Below are positions 1-59,196 of a DNA stretch of 59,196 nt, piece after piece (position 1 is the first letter of the stretch; each line of letters starts with the position of its first letter). Origin of the DNA: Chitinophagales bacterium. Its GTDB lineage: Bacteria; Bacteroidota; Bacteroidia; Chitinophagales; LD1. The position numbers and the translations under genes were made by a program. Below the pieces are notes generated by a model that was not told the DNA's origin, made no database searches, and was given only the letters and a program-made list of their open reading frames with translations. The DNA is taken from assembly GCA_025057415.1 (NCBI GenBank), contig JANWXI010000004.1, positions 1 to 59,196 on the forward strand, given 5' to 3'.

Positions 1-10
1 CGCTTGCCCA

Positions 11-170
11 GGTGAGGGATGCGGAGGGCGCGAGCGCAGCGAAGCGGCCACGCCCGCACCGTTGAAAAACAAACAACGCGCGGGCGCGGCGGGAGCGACA
101 GCGTACCCCGTAGCCAGCCCGACCCCGCTGCTGCGCGCAGCCCCGCGGAGCGCAGCAGCGGGGGCACCCC
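11..170 (+). repeat. ~160-bp structured dispersed repeat, copy 1 (orientation GGTGAGGGATGC...GGGGCACCCC)
   Basis: Near-identical to 13047-13208 and 51841-52002. Perfect 14-bp stem CCCCGCTGCTGCGC/GCGCAGCAGCGGGG at 123-163. Confidence 0.95.
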
Positions 171-228
171 ATAATATAAAACAATTTTTAATGTATTGCC
201 CGTTTCGTTTTGTGCGTATCGTTCATTT

Positions 229-12573: not shown

Positions 12574-12946
12574 GTTTGCAGATTATTTGTGCGTTTAATC
12601 GGTATGATATGCTTAATATTTAACAATCATTGCCCATAGCCAGATTATATGAAAGAGAAATTGTATATTACGCATTTAAAGGCAACACATTCTGGCGAAA
12701 TCTATTCCTGAGGGTACAAAAGGGATTTTGTATCAGATGTATGTTCGCGGAGTTTATTTTCCTTCCTTTGAAGCAGCCGCTCAGTTACCCCGGTTAAATT
12801 TGCACTCCTGATGTATCCTGATTATCTGGAAAGAGTTTATGTGATAAGAGAGCATTGAAGTATCAGGACAGTAGTTAACGGTTAAGAGCTTATTGTGAAG
12901 TAGTCGTATCTGGGGGTTTTGTTGAATTTGTGTGATGTACCGCGAA

Positions 12947-12977
12947 TGCGCGCCTGCGCCTGCGGCGCAGGCGCGCA
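12947..12977. repeat. Perfect 14-bp GC-rich hairpin with 3-nt loop
   Basis: TGCGCGCCTGCGCC-TGC-GGCGCAGGCGCGCA, 70 bp from repeat copy 3. Confidence 0.8.
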
Positions 12978-13046
12978 GAAGAGTAGAATTGTGACAAGAG
13001 ACAGTATTGGTCAAATGACCTTACGCCCTTCTGCTCCTCTTCAATC

Positions 13047-13208
13047 GGGTGAGGGATGCGTAGGGCGCGAGCGCAGCGAAGCGGCCGCGCCCGCACCATT
13101 GAAAAGACAAGCAATGCGCGGGCGCGGCGGGAGCGAAAGCGTACCCCGTAGCCAGCCCGACCCCGCTGCTGCGCGTAGCTCTGCGGAGCGCAGCAGCGGG
13201 GGCACCCC
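13047..13208 (+). repeat. Structured dispersed repeat, copy 3
   Basis: GGGTGAGGGATGCGTAGGGCGCG...GGGGGCACCCC, in a divergent intergenic region. Confidence 0.95.
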
Positions 13209-13371
13209 ATCATAATAATGATTTAAATTTTTATAGTCGTTTAGTTATGTTATTTTATCGGAGTGTATTTTGCGTAAGCGATATAACCCGATTAATGGCG
13301 TACATGGAATTCTTTCGGGGTGTTTATGCGCAAGTTTCAATCCTTCTATTTTAGCGCGCAATCGTAGAACT

Positions 13372-24153: not shown

Positions 24154-24262
24154 TACCGCCCCGCCTGCAGGTCAGCATGTATGTCTTTACTGCATTCACC
24201 CGATGACGCACTGCAACTCTCCCTTCAAAATATATAATTTACTTATAATTTGTTTTTTATTT

Positions 24263-24414
24263 GGGGGTGCCCCCGCTGCCTGGCGATGCAAGGCAGCGGG
24301 GTCGGGCTTGCTACGGGGTGCGCTTCGCTCCCGCCACGCCCGTAGTATTATTGATATTTCAAAGGTACGGGCGTGGCCGCTTCGCTGCACTCGCGCCCTC
24401 CGCATCCCTCACCC
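24263..24414 (-). repeat. Structured dispersed repeat, copy 4 (variant)
   Basis: GGGGGTGCCCCCGCTGCC...CGCATCCCTCACCC; central stem CCACGCCCGTA/TACGGGCGTGG. Confidence 0.93.
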
Positions 24415-25249
24415 GAATGAAATAGCACACTTACCCCGTATATCGTGAGCCATGTTACTTCGGGCAGTGATGCCAACTTTTGTCACAATACTTCAGGTGG
24501 TATGTATTTTTGATATAGATTGCATGATGCTTCACTCCGTTTTAAATCATAACAGCCAGAGTTGATAAATTTTTTACCGGTAAGTTGTTTTTGGTGATAC
24601 CACTACGAAACATACCCATTAAAAAAATATAATATGTTTTAATAGCCGAAAAACTGATTTTTGCTTTGGGCGTATGGGTGCCTGCAAGTTTATTATCCAA
24701 AAACAATAGCACATACCCGGATATATAGATTAATGTTTGCTTTCTATGCACAACTGGTTGCCAAACCCGATAATGAACAGTGCATTTGCGAAATTGGTTA
24801 CAAGCTGTAAGCTGCATCAATATTAACCAACATTTAAGACCGCCGTTTATACAGTGGTCTTATTTTTATTTAGAGGTGGCAAAAAATGTTGTTGTAAACT
24901 CAGGTGTGTTGCTAAAATAGATAAAGCAAAAATCTCTGTTGTATTTACATACATTACATAAATATCATTTTTATGACCACAACATATTATTTTAAGTTTA
25001 GCGATGGTTGGTAGGTGCCTATTAAAATTTCTAAGTACCACATAAAACTCAACATACCGCCAGACACAATCCTCGACTGTACCATCAAATAAACGTGTAT
25101 GTCATTCCTGCTGGCAGATAATCACTTCAAAACACTCTACACAAAACTCCTCTGACTGCGACTATCTAATTTCTTCCTTATTTTAATACTCTATGACACG
25201 ACTTACCACAAGAACATTCAATTATTATTTTCGCCTGCTTTAAAACATA

Positions 25250-34071: not shown

Positions 34072-35646
34072 TTAGGTTGATAAGCGTTTAAATAAAGACG
34101 TAAATTTCATCACTTCGTTGAGGTTGCTTACTTTGATTTTCCCCATCATGAACATCATTTGCGGGTTGGCGCGGCCTAATTCCAAATCTTCGTAATCAGT
34201 AGCGGCGGCGCTAATTACACACGATGCTTCGCCATGAAGGCCATCCTGAACCGTTACGGAGCCGTTGAGAAGGGTTACGGTGAATTCACCGCCGGTGTTG
34301 CCGGAGAGTTTGAAGTGAAATACGGAACGATCTTCTGGCTTTACTTTATCGGTTTTGAGGCGTGCCGGTAAGCTGTAAATGATTTCGCGTGCTGTTTGGG
34401 GCTTGCCGTTTGATTGCGCGGCGGCCGGCGCCGTATGCGGTGTATCGGAAGCGGTTTGCCTGTCGGCTTCTTTCATGTTTTTGTATGCACTCTCGTAGTT
34501 AACACCGTCTATCACCATTTTGGCAATAATCTCTTTCATGATTTCGGTTGTACCGCCCACAATGGTGCCTACACGGGCATCGCGGTAGGCGCGTTCGATG
34601 GGGTATTCCTGCATGTATCCGTAACCACCGAACATTTGCAAACACTCATCGGCAATGGTTTTACCCAGCTCGGTAGCTTTCATTTTGGCGATGGAGCACT
34701 CTTTGACGGCAAATACGCCGCGTGCAAATAAATCGCAGCAGTGATAAACGTACTGCTTGGTAATTTCCAGCTCGCTGATGAGGTCTACCATGCGGTGGCG
34801 AAGCACCTGAAACTTGTTGAGAGGTTTATTGAAGGCGTGGCGTTCTCTCATGTACTGCTGCGTAACGCGGATTTTTTCTTCTGCACCGGCAACAGCCAGA
34901 ATGCCGGCTATGAGGCGCTCCAGTTGAAAACTTTCCATAATGTAAAAGAAACCCTGCCCTTCGCGGCCTACGAGATTTTGGACGGGCACTTTTACATTAT
35001 CGAAGAACAATTCGGCTGTGTCGCTGCTGCGCCAACCCATTTTTTTCAGTTTGGTTTTGGTGAAGCCGGGCAAGCCCTGGTCCACCACAATCAAACTGAT
35101 GCCGGCAACACCGGCATCGGGGTCGGTTTTGCAGGCAACGGTGACAAAGTTGCCATAGTAGCCGTTGGTGATGAAGGTTTTGTTGCCATTGAGGATGTAG
35201 TAGTCACCCTCGCGGCGTGCCGTACAGCGGAGGTTGGCAACATCGCTGCCCGCTCCGGGCTCGCTGATGGCTATACTGCCCACGTATTCGCCCTTTACGG
35301 AGGGTACAAGGTATTTTTGTTTCAGGTATTCGCTGCCTGCCAACAGAATATGGTTGGTGGCCATGTATTGGTGAACACTCACGGCAGCCGCCAGGCCGGC
35401 AAAGCCGGCGCGTGCCAGCTCTTCGAGGTAAACCACTGAGTACCAAAAGTCGTTGTCGGTTCCGCCCACGCTTTCCGGGAAGTTGATGCCCAGAAAGCCG
35501 AGGTCGCCCATGCGTTTGAAAATTTGGCGGGGTATGCATTCGTTTTCTTCCCACTCGTTGATGTGGGGCACAACTTCTTTTTGCACGAAGTCGCGCACGG
35601 TTTGGCGGAAGAGTTCGTGCTCTTCGGTAAAATATCTGCTATACAT
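34072..35646 (-). CDS. Acyl-CoA dehydrogenase with C-terminal SCP2 sterol-carrier-like domain
   Basis: ISEPGAGSDV, NGNKTFITNG, QMFGGYGY, GGTTEIMKEII; linker, then FHFKLSG..GGEF...NPQMMFMMGKIKVSN. Confidence 0.92.
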   Translation of the reverse strand: MYSRYFTEEHELFRQTVRDFVQKEVVPHINEWEENECIPRQIFKRMGDLGFLGINFPESVGGTDNDFWYSVVYLEELARAGFAGLAAAVSVHQYMATNHILLAGSEYLKQKYLVPSVKGEYVGSIAISEPGAGSDVANLRCTARREGDYYILNGNKTFITNGYYGNFVTVACKTDPDAGVAGISLIVVDQGLPGFTKTKLKKMGWRSSDTAELFFDNVKVPVQNLVGREGQGFFYIMESFQLERLIAGILAVAGAEEKIRVTQQYMRERHAFNKPLNKFQVLRHRMVDLISELEITKQYVYHCCDLFARGVFAVKECSIAKMKATELGKTIADECLQMFGGYGYMQEYPIERAYRDARVGTIVGGTTEIMKEIIAKMVIDGVNYESAYKNMKEADRQTASDTPHTAPAAAQSNGKPQTAREIIYSLPARLKTDKVKPEDRSVFHFKLSGNTGGEFTVTLLNGSVTVQDGLHGEASCVISAAATDYEDLELGRANPQMMFMMGKIKVSNLNEVMKFTSLFKRLST

Positions 35647-35657
35647 GCTGGTGAGGG

Positions 35658-35930
35658 TTAGTTTTCGATGGTGGCTTGTATGCCGCGTTCTGTGATGGCG
35701 TCTTTCATGGGTTTGAGTACATCGTATGGTCCGTGTTTTACGGCATAGCGCCCTTTATAGTGCACAATGTAGGCACACTGCTCGGCCTGTTCGTAAGTAT
35801 GTTTACAGACCTCTACGAGGGTTTTGATGACCCAGTCAAATGTGTTCACTTCATCATTGTGCAGGATTAACTTTGAAGGGGTATCGGTGATTTGGTCTGT
35901 TTGTTCTTTCCACTCGGTTTGGTGTGCCAT
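35658..35930 (-). CDS. clpS: ATP-dependent Clp protease adaptor ClpS
   Basis: LILHNDEVNTFDWVI...EQAEQCAYIVHYKG. Start set at MAHQTE. Confidence 0.93.
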   Translation of the reverse strand: MAHQTEWKEQTDQITDTPSKLILHNDEVNTFDWVIKTLVEVCKHTYEQAEQCAYIVHYKGRYAVKHGPYDVLKPMKDAITERGIQATIEN

Positions 35931-36073
35931 GCGGAATGTTTTATGCGTTACGAAGGAAAAGATTTTTTCTTGAAACTTCAAACAGTTGTTTGAATTTATT
36001 GTTTGCGGCTGTCAGCGCCGCGCCGGCAAGTTGGAGCTGAGGTAGGTTAAATCATCAAGTAAAGCGCTCCATC

Positions 36074-36244
36074 GGGTGAGGGATGCGGAGGGCGCGAACC
36101 CCGCCCGCTGCAGGAGGGCGGGGTGAAGCGGCCACGCCCGTACCCTTGAATAATTAAAAACTTACGGGCGGGGCGGGAGCGAAGCGCACCCCGTAGCAAG
36201 CCCGACCCCGCTGCCTTGCAACGCTTGGCAGCGGGGGCACCCCC
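36074..36244 (+). repeat. Structured dispersed repeat, copy 5 (carries an extra 9-bp hairpin)
   Basis: GGGTGAGGGATGCGGAGGGCGCGA...GGGGGCACCCCC; ACCCCGCCC/GGGCGGGGT at 36098-36124. Confidence 0.93.
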
Positions 36245-36439
36245 TAATAAGAAAAAATGGTGAAGTGACTGGCAGGGTTGCGCGGAAAATGCCGGGGATA
36301 TTTCGTATATGGAGTTAGCAGCCGCAGCGGTGTGGGTTGAAAATATGTGGATGTTTACGTATCTGCCGGCGCAATTAAATAACAGATTAACTATTGCATA
36401 ACAAATACTATGATACATTTGCGGGATAAAGGAATAGCT

Positions 36440-38200
36440 ATGATAAGGATGCTTTACACACTCCTGCTCGTGCTGAGTACAGCGGCCGGGCATGCGCAAT
36501 GTACAGATTTGTTTTTTTCGGAATATGTAGAGGGCTCCAGTAACAACAAGGCGCTCGAGATTTACAATGCATCGGGCAGCACGATAGACCTGACGGGTTA
36601 CCGGGTGCAGTTGTATTCAAACGGGAACACCAACCCTACATCAACGTTTAATCTGAGTGGTAATTTAGCAGCGGGGGCTACGTATGTAATCTGCAACAGT
36701 TCGGCTGCAGCATATATTAAAAGTTTAGCTGATACGACTTCGGGTGTTACGAATTTTAATGGCAATGATGCTATTGTGTTGCTTAAAGGCAACGACACGC
36801 TGGATGTGATAGGGATAGTGGGTAACGACCCAGGCAGCGGTGGTTGGGCTGTTGGCACAGGCAGTACCACTGATAAAACACTGGTGCGTTCCGACACGGT
36901 GAAGCTCGGTACGAAAGATTGGAGTATAGGCGCTACGCAATGGTTGGTGTTGCCGAAAGATACCATTATGCTGAAGCAACATACCATGCAACCATGCCCG
37001 CCTTCTGTGGCTTTTGGTTTAACGAGCGATGCCGTAAACGAGAGCGCCGGCACATACTCCATATCCATTACGCTGAATACACCGGCCACTATCTCTTACA
37101 CCGTAGATGTGAAGCTGACAGGCGGTACCGGTGACGCGTCAGACATAGGCATGTTTACCGGAGCGCAGGTAACTTTTGGACCCGGGGATGTTACCAAAAC
37201 CGTTTCGATAAACATTACAGATGACAATATACAGGAACCTGCAGAGACCTTGATTTTCACGCTGCAGAATCCGTCATCGGGTTTACTGATAGGAGCTAAC
37301 GCTACGTTTACCCTTACGATTGCCGCCAGTGATGTGCCGGTGGTGAAGTACAATATTTCACAAATTACCGGGCTGGATGCCGATTTTAAACCTGACTCAC
37401 TGGGCGCTAAAGTAGTGGTAACGGGTACGGTTATCGGTATAGATTACCGCGCCAATGGGTTGGAATTTTTTATTCATGACGGAACCGATGGCATACAGGT
37501 GTTTTCGCCAAGCAATACGTTTGGCTACACGGTAAACGAGGGGGATTCGGTGCAGGTGGAAGGAGAGGTGAGTTTCTTTAACGGAGTTACGCAGATAGCG
37601 TTTTTGGATACTGTGTTTAAAGTAGGTACGGGCGCAGTGCCTGCACCCGCGGTAGTGCAGGATTTAGACGAAAACACCGAAGCGGAGCTAATACGGCTGA
37701 ACTATGTTAATTTGGTGAATCCTTCACAATGGACCGGCTCAGGCGCCAATGGGTTTAACTGCAGCATCACAGACGGGCAAAAAACCTGGACTTTGCGCAT
37801 TGATGAACAGTGTGCGTTGTATTCGCAGCCGGCGCCTCAGGGCAAGTTTCATGTCATCGGCATCGGTAGTCAATTTGATGCTACTTCGCCTTATGATGGC
37901 GGCTACCAGATTTTGCCCCGTTATGTAACGGACATCATCCTGGTAACAGGCACGGATGACATGGAAAAACTTCAGGTGAGTGTTTTCCCCAACCCCGGTC
38001 GCGACAAATTTTATCTGTTTGCTGCCACAGCCGGTGAAACGCAAGTGCTGGTTACGGACATAACCGGCAAAACAATTCATAGGAGTACTTTCTACGGAGC
38101 TCAACACACGTTGGCGCTGGAGAATGCGGCGCCCGGGTGGTATATGGTTGAATTGTTACAAAACGGCAAATACTACCGCACGAAATTGCTCGTGCAGTAA
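36440..38200 (+). CDS. T9SS type-A cargo with lamin-tail-like, Calx-beta-like and OB-fold-like domains
   Basis: Signal peptide; DLFFSEYVEGSSNNKALEIYN (ExeM-type N-domain); GDSVQVEG; YQILPR; C-terminal VFPNP...PGWYMV...KLLVQ. Confidence 0.85.
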   Translation: MIRMLYTLLLVLSTAAGHAQCTDLFFSEYVEGSSNNKALEIYNASGSTIDLTGYRVQLYSNGNTNPTSTFNLSGNLAAGATYVICNSSAAAYIKSLADTTSGVTNFNGNDAIVLLKGNDTLDVIGIVGNDPGSGGWAVGTGSTTDKTLVRSDTVKLGTKDWSIGATQWLVLPKDTIMLKQHTMQPCPPSVAFGLTSDAVNESAGTYSISITLNTPATISYTVDVKLTGGTGDASDIGMFTGAQVTFGPGDVTKTVSINITDDNIQEPAETLIFTLQNPSSGLLIGANATFTLTIAASDVPVVKYNISQITGLDADFKPDSLGAKVVVTGTVIGIDYRANGLEFFIHDGTDGIQVFSPSNTFGYTVNEGDSVQVEGEVSFFNGVTQIAFLDTVFKVGTGAVPAPAVVQDLDENTEAELIRLNYVNLVNPSQWTGSGANGFNCSITDGQKTWTLRIDEQCALYSQPAPQGKFHVIGIGSQFDATSPYDGGYQILPRYVTDIILVTGTDDMEKLQVSVFPNPGRDKFYLFAATAGETQVLVTDITGKTIHRSTFYGAQHTLALENAAPGWYMVELLQNGKYYRTKLLVQ

Positions 38201-50562: not shown

Positions 50563-50722
50563 CTGTGAACTGTAAATTTTTTAACACACCCCTTCCTGTG
50601 AGGCCAAAACCGGCGAGAACGTGCATAAAATAATACGGACATAATCTCAACAACACTGTGCCAAATCCATACATATACAACACGATAAAACTCCTACAAT
50701 AGATAACATTTTATCGTTTATC

Positions 50723-50863
50723 GGGGGGTGCCCCCCGCAGCAGCGCGCTCGTACCTCGCGCGCTGCTGCGGGGGGCGGGCGTGCTACCGGGTGCGCGTTC
50801 GCTCCCCTGCTCCACACCGTTTCGCACCGCTCCCGGTGGTCGCGCCCTCCGCATCCCTCACCC
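50723..50863 (-). repeat. Structured dispersed repeat, copy 6 (shorter variant lacking the central long hairpin)
   Basis: GGGGGGTGCCCCCC...CGCGCCCTCCGCATCCCTCACCC; 17-bp perfect stem 50731-50775. Confidence 0.9.
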
Positions 50864-51159
50864 GGAAAAAAAAGCGGTTCTTAACGGACAATCGTTTCAG
50901 AAAATCTTAGCCCGTTTTACAGGTGCATAACTGTTGAAACACAAATGTTCATGCAAAATAACGGCTACCTGATTAATTGGCATAACATTGCTAAGTACCT
51001 TTTATTTGGCGCGGATACCCCGGTAGCGCACACACGCTTAACTGCACAAGTCGGAGCGATGTTTTATGAATGATGTTATACGCTGCATCATTCCTCAATC
51101 CACATATGGCTCATAAATTGAGTAATGAGCGGGGGATGATTTGCGATGGTATTTGGCTC

Positions 51160-51522
51160 TCACTCCTTTAATTCCCGCAGCGAAAATTTGGCCGGGCTGG
51201 CGGTGATAGATATGTTGCGGGTACTGCCGTCGCGTTGTATAAAGCTCAGGGTGGCGTTTTCATCGTCAGACCAGTTGATTTTTACAGAGTTACTGTCAAG
51301 GTGCTCGGCATACACCTGCAACCTAAACTCACCTTTGTGTTGGTTGTAAGCATCAATGCTGATGAGGGTTTCAAACGGTTCTAGTATGTTGCTGCGCTCA
51401 CCTGTCACTATGATTTTTACTGCTCCGTTGGCATGGGTAAACTTTACTTTACCCTCTTTTGAGCCGCTGCAGGCATAAAGTGAGAGGAGCGCTGTGTACA
51501 ACATCGTTTTTGTAAAGTTCAT
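51160..51522 (-). CDS. Hypothetical lipoprotein, flanked by inverted repeat copies 6 and 7
   Basis: MNFTKTMLYTALLSLYA-C-SG lipobox; 120 aa. Confidence 0.75.
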   Translation of the reverse strand: MNFTKTMLYTALLSLYACSGSKEGKVKFTHANGAVKIIVTGERSNILEPFETLISIDAYNQHKGEFRLQVYAEHLDSNSVKINWSDDENATLSFIQRDGSTRNISITASPAKFSLRELKE

Positions 51523-51665
51523 TTTGTTGTGATTAATAAAGTAAAGGTATGAAAACACTTTTGTTGTGGTAGGGTTGCAGGAGTTTATTTTTAGTTGATG
51601 GTGTATCAGAAAAATCGGGGGGTGCATTCAGCGGCTTGTTTGTTGGAGGTTTTGTGGAGGTTTTT

Positions 51666-51690: not shown

Positions 51691-51840
51691 GAATGTTAAG
51701 GTGAGGCGGGTGTGGTTATTTTCTGTGCGCGCCCGGTGGCATCCCCTTGTCATATTATATTTATTCTTTATACGAATCATTGCCCTGCCAACTCACCTGT
51801 GCTGCTTTGCGCAACACAAGGGCCGCCGGAGCGATTGCTT

Positions 51841-52002
51841 GGGTGAGGGATGCGTAGGGCGCGAGCGCAGCGAAGCGGCCGCGCCTGTACCGTTGAAAAA
51901 CAAACAACGCACGGGCGCGGCGGGAGCGGCAGCGTACCCCGCAGCAAGCCCGACCCCGCTGCTGCGCGTAGCTACGCGAAGCGCAACAGCGGGGGCACCC
52001 CC
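51841..52002 (+). repeat. Structured dispersed repeat, copy 7
   Basis: Near-identical to copies 1 and 3. Confidence 0.95.
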
Positions 52003-52117
52003 AATAATTAAAAAATAAACATATATAAAATATTGTGCATTTATTAACGCGAAACCCGCAATGCGTTTTGCGCTGCGGGGTGAGCGGGGCGCGGGTTGTT
52101 GAAAACTTTTGGGCGAT

Positions 52118-58997: not shown

Positions 58998-59073
58998 CTC
59001 GCCACCGGTTGCGGTCGCATACCCGCGTACGAAATACATTAACAAAAAATCTTATATGTATTTTCATTTTTCA

Positions 59074-59196
59074 GGGGGTGCCCCCGGTGCGCCCCCCGCG
59101 TAACAAACCGGGCGCACAGGGGGCGGGCGGGCGAAGGGGTAACCAGTCGCTACCCCCCCCCCCCGGAGATTTTTTTTTTTATAAAAGGTACGGGCG
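59074..59196 (-). repeat. Structured dispersed repeat, copy 8 (divergent, truncated by window end)
   Basis: GGGGGTGCCCCC start, hairpin GTGCGCCC/GGGCGCAC, GGGGGCGGGC, and ends in AAAGGTACGGGCG as in copy 4. Homopolymer runs suggest low-quality end sequence. Confidence 0.75.

What the first reader, a model, noticed from the sequence alone, without database searches (positions are those of the whole stretch)
36091..36130. GC-GNA-GC mini-hairpins point to a single-stranded DNA, not RNA, fold; copy 5 swaps one for a long hairpin
Seen: the plus-orientation strand is studded with GCGCAGC, GCGAAGC, GCGGAGC and GCGTAGC heptamers in which the middle N varies between copies. The consensus GGCGCGA-GCGCAGC-GAAGCGGCC becomes GGCGCGA-ACCCCGCCC(9 nt)GGGCGGGGT-GAAGCGGCC in copy 5, so a 9-bp stem replaces the heptamer at exactly the same position. 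Established: d(GCGNAGC) forms an exceptionally stable 2-bp-stem triloop hairpin in DNA but not in RNA. Inference: the heptamer acts as a hairpin and the functional molecule is ssDNA of this strand, the same strand that becomes G/T-rich in the flanks. A G(T/G)AG tetranucleotide also precedes the GGCGCG arm, echoing GTAG-tagged REP substrates of HUH RAYT nucleases.
Basis: partly seen in the sequence, partly recalled or inferred. Interest (0 to 1): 0.75.

Follow-up and report, generated by a model that had tools for sequence, protein, structure and literature searches.

The report
One-strand-folding GC-rich repeat family
The flagged stretch is one copy of a small GC-rich repeat, present about 270 times in this hot-spring bacterium and found across its bacterial class, whose one strand folds into a conserved knot of tiny hairpins; whether that strand works as DNA or as RNA is still open.

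Summary
Window 36091-36130 lies in copy 5 (36073-36253, +) of a 120-190-nt interspersed element with 268 copies in this 3.2-Mb Chitinophagales genome. GCGNAGC heptamers occur 540 times on the element's + strand against 53 on the other strand (shuffles give 36). The middle N varies while G and A stay fixed, the 2-bp stem covaries, and copy 5 carries a 9-bp hairpin in the heptamer slot.

A covariance model finds it in 19 of 151 Bacteroidia genomes, at high copy in at least four families. The 24-pair core fold is 98% paired, and 17 pairs show double changes.

- **Strand:** well supported.
- **ssDNA rather than RNA:** favoured but unproven. The non-GNRA GACA, GGCA and GTTA caps match measured DNA mini-hairpins. 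Copies show no gene-orientation bias, and a strand-specific G-rich footprint lies in the flanks.
- **REP/RAYT echo:** not supported. The "GTAG" N is variable, and six of seven high-copy genomes lack an intact Y1 transposase gene.

Two things are new. Neighbouring copies alternate in orientation (93 of 121 pairs). Synonymous sites within 1-3 kb are G-enriched on the element's strand.

The scan had flagged this family before on another contig of this genome (e1-2812362).

The parts
36073..36253 (+). Copy 5 of the element (the finding lies inside it). It sits between clpS (35658-35981, -) and a T9SS-sorted surface-protein gene (36410-38200, +).
   Evidence: CM match of 77.4 bits, E 3.8e-14. Alignments. 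Pfam scan of the neighbours.
36074..36078 (+). 5' arm GGGTG of the closing helix. It pairs with CACCC at 36238-36242.
   Evidence: Predicted by RNAalifold and by single-sequence folds. It covaries as GGGTG/CACCC, GCGTG/CACGC and GCGTT/AACGC (column 3/355 is GC 25 and CG 21).
36087..36089 (+). 5' side (G-N-A) of the GNA x GNA internal loop. Its partner G-N-A is at 36193-36195.
   Evidence: N is G 73, A 44, T 35, C 15 on the 5' side and T 144, A 12, C 10, G 1 on the 3' side, of 167 copies. G and A are kept in nearly all lineages.
36098..36124 (+). Copy-5-specific 9-bp hairpin: ACCCCGCCC, loop GCTGCAGGA, GGGCGGGGT. It occupies the slot of the GC-GNA-GC mini-hairpin, the cap of hairpin A.
36131..36174 (+). 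Hairpin P1: a 12-bp stem with an A-rich loop.
   Evidence: Pair table: position 3 is GC 78, CG 20, AT 3; position 10 is CG 74, TA 34. The second species has GCGACCGC/GCGGTCGC.
36179..36185 (+). Second mini-hairpin, GCGAAGC. In other copies it reads GCGACAGC, GCGGCAGC or GCGAAAGC.
   Evidence: Insert between the anchors: ACA 51, GCA 41, AA 36, AAA 19 of 167 copies.
36206..36236 (+). Hairpin P2: CCCCGCTGCC, an 11-nt loop, GGCAGCGGGG. Its top varies between copies.
   Evidence: 106 cells with a different Watson-Crick pair; helices 5 and 6.
36245..36257 (+). A-rich tail directly after the 3' end. It is kept in other genera as CC-AAAAA.
   Evidence: Position profiles. Relatives.
9..186 (+). Copy 1
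   Evidence: CM, 72.5 bits
2783..2960 (-). Copy 2
   Evidence: CM, 90.2 bits
13046..13218 (+). Copy 3
   Evidence: CM, 89.3 bits
24254..24415 (-). Copy 4
   Evidence: CM, 91.3 bits
50715..50864 (-). Copy 6: the short-P1 subfamily, with CCACCGG in the slot.
   Evidence: CM, 104.5 bits
51840..52011 (+). Copy 7
   Evidence: CM, 89.6 bits
59071..59196 (-). Copy 8, cut off by the end of the window.
   Evidence: nhmmer partial hit covering HMM positions 45-168

Best explanation

**The fold (shown).** One strand, the G-rich '+' strand, folds into a closed multi-helix structure. A 5-bp helix joins the two ends (GGGTG/CACCC). Two short helices are interrupted by a symmetric GNA x GNA internal loop. A junction carries two or three hairpins capped by C:G-closed GNA or GNNA loops and lengthened by tandem G.A pairs. 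A variable hairpin and an A-rich tail follow.

**How it works (inferred).** I take the folded single strand, most likely as DNA, to be what is recognised and copied or maintained. It would be exposed by replication, nicking or extrusion. The enzyme would be structure-specific, is not yet identified, and is not a RAYT.

**Shown:** the fold, its strand specificity, the wide distribution, the repeated amplification to tens or hundreds of copies, the absence of target duplications, the alternating orientation of neighbours, and the strand-specific G-rich footprint in unique flanking DNA.

**Inferred:** that the active form is ssDNA, that a protein partner exists, and that the footprint comes from a strand-specific DNA process starting at the element.
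For: **Fold.**
- In the alignment of 47 distinct copies drawn from 17 genomes, 98.0% of 1097 cells are paired, against 86.3% in shuffles.
- 17 of 24 pairs show changes on both sides, in 105 cells against 24.6 expected. 0 of 500 shuffles reach the observed values, and slid partners pair in 27-55% of cells.
- RNAalifold finds the same helices on a MAFFT alignment that was not fitted to any model.

**Strand.**
- GCGNAGC occurs 540 times on + and 53 on -.
- G.T outnumbers A.C by 22 to 2 and by 57 to 7.
- The GNA x GNA loop is kept across lineages.

**DNA rather than RNA.**
- The caps fit the measured DNA mini-hairpin set: GCGNAGC, GCGACAGC (72 C), GCGTTAGC (69.5 C), CC/GG stems allowed, C:G closing. 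r(GCGAAAGC) melts at 39 C (PMC13037366 section 2.3; PMC3201870 abstract).
- About 96 of 120 tetraloops at the second cap are non-GNRA.
- The only DNA holder listed is a hot-spring metagenome.
- Copies show no orientation preference towards the downstream gene: 74 co-oriented and 74 opposite of 148. They sit in all kinds of intergenic region in about the genome-wide proportions.
- Different sequence modules lie upstream of the copies, so there is no shared promoter position.
- G.T is rare inside this genome: 45 cells against 28 A.C.

**DNA-level footprint.**
- The unique 100-1000 nt downstream of the 3' end has a GC skew of +0.10 on the element strand. It is positive in about 83% of 199 copies, whichever way the gene there runs.
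- At third codon positions G rises from 0.26 to 0.39-0.40 while A and C fall and T stays flat. The effect fades over 1.5-3 kb.
- The footprint recurs in G341 (18 of 20), G739 (14 of 14) and G781 (7 of 9).

**Selection on single copies.** Loop N positions are near-random and unlinked to each other (Cramer's V 0.1-0.2), while structural positions are 95-99% fixed.

**Mode of spread.** No target-site duplication was found: the longest shared word between the two flanks averages 4.49 nt against 4.55 in mismatched controls.
Against: - No direct evidence on the chemistry.
- No HUH or other partner gene was found. PF01797 gives only a 54-aa fragment here, nothing in G341, G747, G777, G711 and G739, and one intact gene in G781. 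No TnpB was found in G000 or G341.
- Features typical of orphan structured RNAs are present: deep conservation with 1-4 copies per genome next to ordinary genes, A-rich loops, tandem G.A pairs, and some G.U tolerance on the folded strand.
- One genus has GCTTTTGC and GCTTTAGC caps, which are poor DNA mini-hairpins (33 C).
- The footprint is absent in the three genomes of the genus of G747, G777 and G711: -0.03 to -0.06, n = 26, 20 and 8.
- The footprint is already +0.095 next to the least diverged copies. It might therefore reflect target choice rather than an effect of the element.
- The replication-direction bias expected for IS608-type ssDNA elements was not seen: 88 of 190 concordant at 3-15 kb. 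This genome shows no long-range skew to test it against.
- Nearest-neighbour energies do not separate the strands: DNA -54.5 against -51.8, RNA -93.9 against -96.8 kcal/mol.
Confidence: 0.45

Rival explanations
1. It is a structured non-coding RNA family: a trans-acting or co-transcribed RNA of unknown role, or the RNA intermediate of a retro-mobile element. The + strand transcript adopts the fold. The multi-copy state in some genomes is a secondary amplification.
For: - The family is class-wide, and many genomes hold 1-4 copies next to unrelated housekeeping genes.
- Covariation is strong.
- Wobble pairs favour the + strand, 22 to 2.
- A-rich loops, tandem G.A pairs and C:G-closed G...A loops are also common RNA motifs.
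- An A-rich 3' tail follows the element.
- Weinberg et al. 2017 state that ssDNA and RNA motifs are hard to tell apart by computation (PMC5737381, passages).
Against: - No Rfam family matches.
- There is no shared upstream module or promoter position, and no hairpin-plus-U-run terminator. A's follow the 3' end.
- Copies show no orientation bias towards genes.
- 80% of tetraloops at one cap are non-GNRA.
- RNA hairpins with 2-bp stems are weak (39 C), and the only DNA holder listed is a hot-spring metagenome.
- G.U makes up only 2% of cells, and 9 of the 22 lie in one contested helix.
- No reverse transcriptase link was tested.
Confidence: 0.3
2. It is a host-kept chromosomal site rather than a selfish element. 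It could be a binding or recombination site for a structure-specific host protein, involved in nucleoid organisation, inversion or recombination hot spots, or replication restart or priming. It would be kept in alternating orientation for that role.
For: - Single copies look to be under purifying selection.
- Neighbours alternate in orientation: 93 of 121 pairs opposite, 41 of 44 at gaps under 6 kb.
- The skew domains are centred on the elements.
- REP/BIME elements are reported as binding sites for several host proteins (PMC2817692, start of the abstract in the listing; which proteins is recalled, not seen).
Against: - The family was not found in 33 same-genus genomes searched. A host function would then be dispensable.
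- Copy number ranges from 1 to about 270 between relatives.
- Insertion sites are not shared between the two species of the family. Only 7 of 45 flanking orthologues lie within 400 nt of a copy, and only one has the same arrangement.
Confidence: 0.15
3. It is an ordinary decaying MITE or palindromic dsDNA repeat. On this reading its hairpins are by-products of inverted repeats and no single strand has a role.
For: - Copy number is high, copies are intergenic, and they break the assembly (100 of 269 hits lie within 300 nt of a contig end).
- Both strands fold about equally well in standard energy models.
Against: - There are no terminal inverted repeats beyond 5 nt and no target duplication.
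- Compensatory changes keep the helices across a bacterial class.
- Loops and mismatches are conserved on one strand only.
- Variability is very uneven between sites.
Confidence: 0.07

Closest known systems
REP / BIME / REPIN elements with RAYT (TnpA-REP, Y1 HUH) of Proteobacteria, and the 'atypical secondary structures' beside subclass 2.6 TnpA-REP-like genes of Bacteroidetes (Quentin et al. 2018, PMC6006769, passages)
   Same: - High-copy, intergenic, GC-rich, hairpin-forming and long-lived.
- Neighbouring copies are mostly inverted, with tight inverted doublets in one genus.
- Other repeat modules sit beside many copies, giving a mosaic like BIMEs.
   Different: - The element is 120-190 nt with a closed multi-helix fold, not a 20-40-nt palindrome.
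- It has no fixed GTAG or CGTC tag.
- An intact Y1 gene is found in only 1 of 7 high-copy genomes.
- The core is conserved across a class rather than co-evolving within a genus.
DNA mini-hairpins d(GCGNAGC) and d(GCGNNAGC) at ssDNA priming and promoter sites: phage G4 origin, ssiA, phage N4 vRNAP promoters (Hirao review, PMC13037366)
   Same: - The heptamer and octamer sequences are identical, including the measured variants GCGACAGC and GCGTTAGC.
- The loop is closed by a C:G pair, and CC/GG stems are accepted.
- The motif lies on one strand only.
   Different: - Here the mini-hairpins are caps inside a larger conserved fold that is repeated hundreds of times in a chromosome.
- No primase or RNA polymerase link is shown.
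- Some relatives use loops that make poor DNA mini-hairpins.
IS200/IS605 family and its non-autonomous derivatives (ssDNA 'peel and paste' transposition)
   Same: - No target duplication.
- Dependence on a fold of one strand.
- A high-copy non-autonomous state.
   Different: - No TnpA or TnpB was found.
- The two ends pair with each other instead of each carrying its own subterminal hairpin.
- No fixed tetranucleotide or pentanucleotide target is visible.
- No replication-direction bias could be shown.
Integron attC sites (recombination sites that act as folded ssDNA)
   Same: Structure is conserved more than sequence. One strand is the active one. Weinberg et al. 2017 noted a possible complex ssDNA attC-like motif (PMC5737381, passages).
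   Different: Copies are scattered over 196 contigs in alternating orientation, not in one-way arrays behind an integrase gene. No R/L box pattern is seen.
Multi-copy orphan structured RNA motifs found by comparative genomics, for example the transposon-linked guide-RNA scaffolds (recalled)
   Same: Similar size, a multi-helix junction, strong covariation, and many copies in some genomes.
   Different: There is no Rfam match, no linked protein gene, and no fixed position or orientation relative to genes.

Membership tests
REP/REPIN-RAYT system | Short (20-40 nt) imperfect palindrome with a conserved 5' GTAG or CGTC tag | tested here: not met
   The element is a 120-190-nt multi-helix fold. The N of 'GNAG' is T in only 35 of 167 copies.
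REP/REPIN-RAYT system | A cognate single-copy Y1 HUH transposase gene (PF01797) in the genome, usually flanked by REPs | tested here: not met
   - G000: only a 54-aa fragment of 20.8 bits, below the cut-off of 23.
- G341: none.
- G747, G777, G711, G739: none. G781: one intact gene.
- These are draft genomes (91-100% complete where a figure is given; none is given for G341), so absence is not proven.
REP/REPIN-RAYT system | High copy number, intergenic, inverted doublets | tested here: met
   268 copies. 93 of 121 adjacent pairs are inverted. Tight (-,+) doublets make up 13 of 14 adjacent pairs in the loci of G747 and G777.
IS200/IS605-derived non-autonomous elements | TnpA (Y1) and/or TnpB present, with separate subterminal hairpins at the left and right ends | tested here: not met
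   PF07282 gives 0 matches in G000 and G341. Y1 as above. The two ends pair with each other.
IS200/IS605-derived non-autonomous elements | Insertion without target duplication | tested here: met
   shared words between the flanks are no longer than in mismatched controls (190 copies).
IS200/IS605-derived non-autonomous elements | Active strand on the lagging-strand template (orientation follows replication) | tested here: inconclusive
   An apparent link to skew vanished once genes within 3 kb were left out: 88 of 190 concordant at 3-15 kb. The genome shows no skew autocorrelation beyond about 6 kb, so the proxy may be blind.
MITE (DDE-type) | Terminal inverted repeats plus target-site duplication | tested here: not met
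   Only GGGTG/CACCC (5 nt) at the ends. No duplication of 4 nt or more. A 2-3-nt duplication cannot be excluded.
DNA mini-hairpin motif d(GCGNAGC)/d(GCGNNAGC) | Sequence: two G-C pairs (GC..GC or CC..GG), loop G-N-A or G-N-N-A, C:G closing pair | tested here: met
   set against the table in PMC13037366 section 2.3. Exceptions are the CCATCGG-type loops in one subfamily and GCTTTTGC in G137.
DNA mini-hairpin motif d(GCGNAGC)/d(GCGNNAGC) | It actually forms in single-stranded DNA in the cell | not testable with these tools
   Needs melting, nuclease and in-vivo footprinting experiments.
Any described RNA family (Rfam 15) | A match at the family's gathering score | tested here: not met
   0 matches in the window. 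The best sub-threshold match is 23.8 bits against a cut-off of 45. 0 matches at E up to 1 in five relatives' loci.
Integron attC | One-way arrays of cassettes beside an intI gene | tested here: not met
   Copies are scattered with alternating orientation between ordinary genes. An intI gene itself was not searched for.

The most novel reading that the evidence does not exclude
The family is a new kind of chromosomal ssDNA element. Its folded strand would be nicked or loaded by an unknown enzyme. Each copy would then start a short, one-directional strand-specific DNA process, such as strand displacement, repair synthesis or transfer, comparable to an orphan oriT or a single-strand initiation site. 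That process would write a polar G-enriching mutational footprint into 1-3 kb of neighbouring genes. Copies would be kept in alternating orientation along the chromosome. If so, a small repeat would shape the codon usage and strand composition of roughly a quarter of a genome.
Probability: 0.17. Interest if true: 0.9.

Novelty: new variant of a known kind. Interest (0 to 1): 0.7.

Why it matters
**An undescribed, well-supported structure.** I found this family in neither Rfam 15 nor the searched literature. Bacteroidia would then hold a widespread, strongly covarying nucleic-acid fold of unknown function, built almost entirely from sheared G.A motifs. Those motifs are far more stable in DNA than in RNA.

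**A natural test case for ssDNA structure.** Complex ssDNA folds in cells are almost unknown beyond simple hairpins. This family offers hundreds of natural sequence variants for testing whether such folds exist and what reads them.

**Two genome-scale effects not reported for REP-like repeats.** Neighbouring copies alternate in orientation, and synonymous sites in the flanks are G-enriched on the element's strand. Both bear on how repeats shape mutation spectra, codon usage and genome stability.

**A practical point.** These elements break metagenome assemblies: 100 of 269 hits lie within 300 nt of a contig end.

Tried and rejected
- **RNA evidence.** No RNA holder is listed for the locus (one DNA holder, a hot-spring metagenome). 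That is no evidence either way.
- **Empty sites in the population.** Laying the holder's contigs on 35000-37500 gave no joints. The contigs simply stop inside the element.
- **Replication-direction bias.** A strong link between orientation and skew appeared at first. It was a local effect and vanished when genes closer than 3 kb were left out. The genome shows no skew autocorrelation beyond about 6 kb.
- **Energy models.** They do not separate the strands or DNA from RNA.
- **Orthologous empty or filled sites between the two species of the family.**
  - The flanking ORFs of a locus map to different contigs here.
  - Only 7 of 45 lie within 400 nt of a copy, about the share expected from copy density, by my estimate.
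  - Only one has the same arrangement.
  - The exact ends and the mode of insertion therefore stay undefined.
- **Age test.** Divergence of a copy against the strength of its footprint gave rho 0.12, p 0.10. The conserved columns are under selection, so they make a poor clock.
- **Partner genes.** No TnpB was found. Y1 is not consistently present. The neighbours of low-copy relatives are ordinary genes. The 155-aa ORF between copies 6 and 7 has no Pfam match. Reverse transcriptases, relaxases, primases and integrases were not searched.
- **Chance matches.** The Myxococcaceae match has no similarity beyond the 22-mer. Single pattern matches in the phylum scan are at the level of the reversed-pattern control (7 genomes), so only those that aligned over the whole element count.
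- **Literature.** Searches listed no description of this family or of such a flank footprint. No supplementary files were opened.
Full report
**What is at the coordinates.** Window 36091-36130 reads GGCGCGA-ACCCCGCCC-GCTGCAGGA-GGGCGGGGT-GAAGCG.... It lies inside a GC-rich element at 36073-36253 (+), between clpS and a T9SS-sorted surface-protein gene. The window holds eight copies, at 9-186 +, 2783-2960 -, 13046-13218 +, 24254-24415 -, 36073-36253 +, 50715-50864 -, 51840-52011 + and 59071-59196 -; the last is cut by the window's end. The consensus 23-mer around the heptamer has 5 matches against 0.01 expected. In the other copies the slot filled by copy 5's 9-bp hairpin holds a heptamer.

**The family in this genome.**
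- The genome has 3.22 Mb in 196 contigs, 47% G+C and 94% completeness.
- nhmmer finds 269 hits, 202 full-length and 67 partial, or 268 elements after merging.
- 100 of the 269 hits lie within 300 nt of a contig end, so the repeat breaks the assembly.
- Of 169 copies with 150 nt of upstream sequence, 35, 10 and 10 carry one of three recurrent upstream modules.
- Upstream DNA is itself repeated in about 30% of copies out to 300 nt. Downstream DNA is unique from the 3' end on.
- No target-site duplication is detectable.

- GCGNAGC occurs 540 times on the + strand of the 202 copies against 53 on the - strand. GCGNNAGC occurs 406 against 5. Shuffles give 36.0 +/- 5.7.
- At the slot the forms are GCGCAGC 74, GCGAAGC 23, GCGGAGC 9 and GCGTAGC 3. 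A second subfamily has CCATCGG, CCGTAGG and ACGGAGT, so the 2-bp stem covaries.
- Three of the 202 copies have a long hairpin there instead.
- 136 of 146 heptamers keep G and A at loop positions 1 and 3.
- A second cap reads GCG-ACA-GC 51, GCG-GCA-GC 41, GCG-AA-GC 36 and GCG-AAA-GC 19 of 167. These are the GCGNNAGC and GCGNAGC forms.
Its N is G 73, A 44, T 35, C 15.

**The fold.**
- Single-sequence folds, RNAalifold on this genome's copies and RNAalifold on a cross-genus MAFFT alignment all agree.
- They give a 5-bp helix joining the ends (GGGTG/CACCC), then GGG/CCC and TGC/GCA, the GNA x GNA loop, GGG/CCC, a junction with hairpins, and a variable hairpin P2.
- Cross-genus changes are compensatory. 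GGGTG/CACCC becomes GCGTG/CACGC or GCGTT/AACGC. The G-C pair after the internal loop becomes A-T in G137.
- A covariance model was built from ten sequences and used to align 47 distinct copies from 17 genomes.
  - 98.0% of 1097 cells are paired, against 86.3% in shuffles.
  - 17 of 24 pairs show double changes, in 105 cells against 24.6 expected.
  - 0 of 500 shuffles reach the observed values. Slid controls pair in 27-55% of cells.
  - That alignment is fitted to the model. The unfitted result is the independent check.
- In G075 the slot hairpin is a plain 6-bp stem, CGCTAC-GCA-GTAGCG, where this genome has CGC-GA-GC-GCA-GC-GA(A)-GCG.
  - This supports a longer 'hairpin A' in which tandem G.A pairs extend the mini-hairpin.
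  - That hairpin competes with the CGC/GCG helix chosen by the model.
- The short form of P1 is the same module again: a stem, then GNA x GNA, a 2-bp stem and a GNA triloop, as in GGTGC-GGA-GC-GAA-GC-GTA-GCAC in G781.

**Distribution.**
- BLAST found nothing in 24 same-genus and 16 other genomes.
- A 22-nt pattern found a second high-copy genome in another genus of the same family: G341 = G041, a Chitinophagales MAG, with 36 exact matches. It also found one to four copies in G137, G089, G075 and G097.
- The model finds the family in 19 of 151 Bacteroidia genomes, or 15 of 101 genera. At least 20 copies were scored in each of G711, G747 and G777 (one genus), 17 in G739 and 14 in G781.
- Full-length relatives outside the order aligned.
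- Rfam 15 has no match. Six literature searches listed no description.

**Which strand.** Three independent features point to the + strand:
- the GNA against TNC counts;
- the conserved G and A of loops and mismatches in nearly all lineages;
- wobble asymmetry, G.T 22 against A.C 2 of 1097 cells and 57 against 7 of 1888.

The second wobble count is inflated by one lineage-fixed T.G in the contested helix. Within this genome the asymmetry of private deviations is weak, 45 against 28.

**DNA or RNA.** This cannot be decided here.

For DNA:
- The caps match the experimentally defined DNA mini-hairpin set. This includes the non-GNRA loops GACA and GTTA (72 and 69.5 C), the tolerance of CC/GG stems, and the C:G closing pair. 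r(GCGAAAGC) melts at 39 C (PMC13037366 section 2.3 read in full; PMC3201870 abstract).
- About 96 of 120 tetraloops at the second cap are non-GNRA.
- The only DNA holder listed is a hot-spring metagenome.
- Copies show no orientation bias towards genes. The downstream gene is co-oriented in 74 and opposite in 74 of 148. Intergenic types are close to the genome baseline.
- No common upstream module and no terminator are seen.

For RNA:
- Class-wide conservation at low copy number beside ordinary genes.
- A-rich loops and G.A motifs.
- Some G.U tolerance.
- G137's GCTTTTGC caps (33 C as DNA).

Energy models are blind to the difference. Weinberg et al. 2017 make the same general caution (PMC5737381, passages). 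That 5'-GNA/5'-GNA internal loops are a characterised DNA 'zipper' motif is recalled (Chou, Zhu and Reid 1994) and comes from no call.

**REP/RAYT.** This is not supported.
- PF01797 gives only a 54-aa IS200-like fragment here.
- It gives nothing in G341, G747, G777, G711 and G739, and one intact gene in G781.
- No TnpB was found.
- Quentin et al. 2018 describe Bacteroidetes TnpA-REP-like genes flanked by atypical structures (PMC6006769, passages). No such gene is found in six of the seven high-copy genomes.

**Two further observations.**

First, neighbouring copies alternate in orientation.
- 93 of 121 adjacent pairs are opposite (p = 2e-9), and 41 of 44 at gaps under 6 kb.
- The window reads + - + - + - + -.
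- In G747 and G777 many copies form tight doublets with their 5' ends facing, 100-450 nt apart.

Second, unique DNA next to a copy is G-rich on the copy's own strand.
- GC skew is +0.10 over 100-1000 nt downstream. It is positive in about 83% of 199 copies, whether the gene there is co-oriented (0.090, n = 83) or opposite (0.119, n = 91).
- At third codon positions, averaged over both gene orientations, G rises from 0.258 to 0.395. A falls from 0.248 to 0.168 and C from 0.254 to 0.185. T stays flat.
- The effect decays over 1.5-3 kb. It is about three times weaker upstream and nearly absent at first and second codon positions.
- It recurs in G341 (18 of 20), G739 (14 of 14) and G781 (7 of 9), but not in G747, G777 and G711.
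- It is not replication skew.
- Its spectrum is not plain cytosine deamination, because T does not rise.
- It is already present beside the least diverged copies, so target choice cannot be excluded.
- My gene calls are crude: longest ORFs, with those overlapping elements dropped. The total-skew result does not depend on them.

**Selection.**
- Loop N positions are close to random and unlinked to each other, with Cramer's V 0.1-0.2, apart from links to the long or short P1 subfamily.
- Structural positions are 95-99% fixed.
- The first 25 nt are identical between genera whose orthologous proteins are 25-97% identical.
- This points to purifying selection or homogenisation acting on the copies, not to free decay.

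**Verdict.** The strand call is right. The ssDNA call is plausible but unproven, at about 45% against 30% for RNA. The RAYT echo is wrong. The element belongs to an undescribed, class-wide family that resembles REP/BIME/REPIN repeats in lifestyle. It differs from them in size, fold, conservation and lack of a RAYT partner.

Noticed in passing
whole genome G000; window copies at 9, 2783, 13046, 24254, 36073, 50715, 51840, 59071: Neighbouring copies alternate in orientation. 93 of 121 adjacent pairs are opposite, and 41 of 44 at gaps under 6 kb. The window reads + - + - + - + -.
   Followed up: partly
1-3 kb on either side of each copy, e.g. window 36260-37260 and 1800-2700: G is enriched on the element's own strand at synonymous sites of flanking genes, independent of gene orientation. 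The effect is stronger on the 3' side. It recurs in G341, G739 and G781 but not in G747, G777 and G711.
   Followed up: partly
upstream of many copies, e.g. window 12900-13040 and G000:C11:42380-42800: Other repeat modules and arrays of GC-rich hairpins (stems of 12-14 bp, loops such as GCAG, ACAG or TTTG) lie upstream of many copies, separated by G/T-rich spacers. Each module is repeated 10-42 times. They give a BIME-like mosaic.
   Followed up: partly
L015:400-567 against L018:400-578 (second species, G341): The top segment of hairpin P1 occurs in both orientations between copies. The two forms are reverse complements of each other inside the same stem, a flip/flop arrangement.
   Followed up: no
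L102-L121 (G747, G777): In this genus copies often form tight inverted doublets with their 5' ends facing each other, 100-450 nt apart. 13 of 14 adjacent pairs are of this kind.
   Followed up: no
G000:C116:15926-16051 (L011:1489-1653, -): A 54-aa remnant of an IS200-type Y1 transposase with a DHVH motif. It is the only PF01797 signal in the genome.
   Followed up: yes
L071:998-1429 (G075): A truncated tyrosine-recombinase-like ORF (...HSLRHSFATHL...LLGH) lies about 70 nt from that genome's single copy. Part of the stretch is withheld and reads N.
   Followed up: no
whole genome G000: The signed third-position GC skew of genes is correlated only over about 6 kb and not at 12-50 kb. The draft therefore shows no classical replication-scale skew.
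   Followed up: partly
window 51160-51627 (-): A 155-aa ORF lies between the inverted copies 6 and 7 and has no Pfam match.
   Followed up: partly
L012:440-700 (second species): One copy in the public MAG record is interrupted by long runs of G and C and a run of N. This is probably an assembly artefact at the repeat.
   Followed up: no
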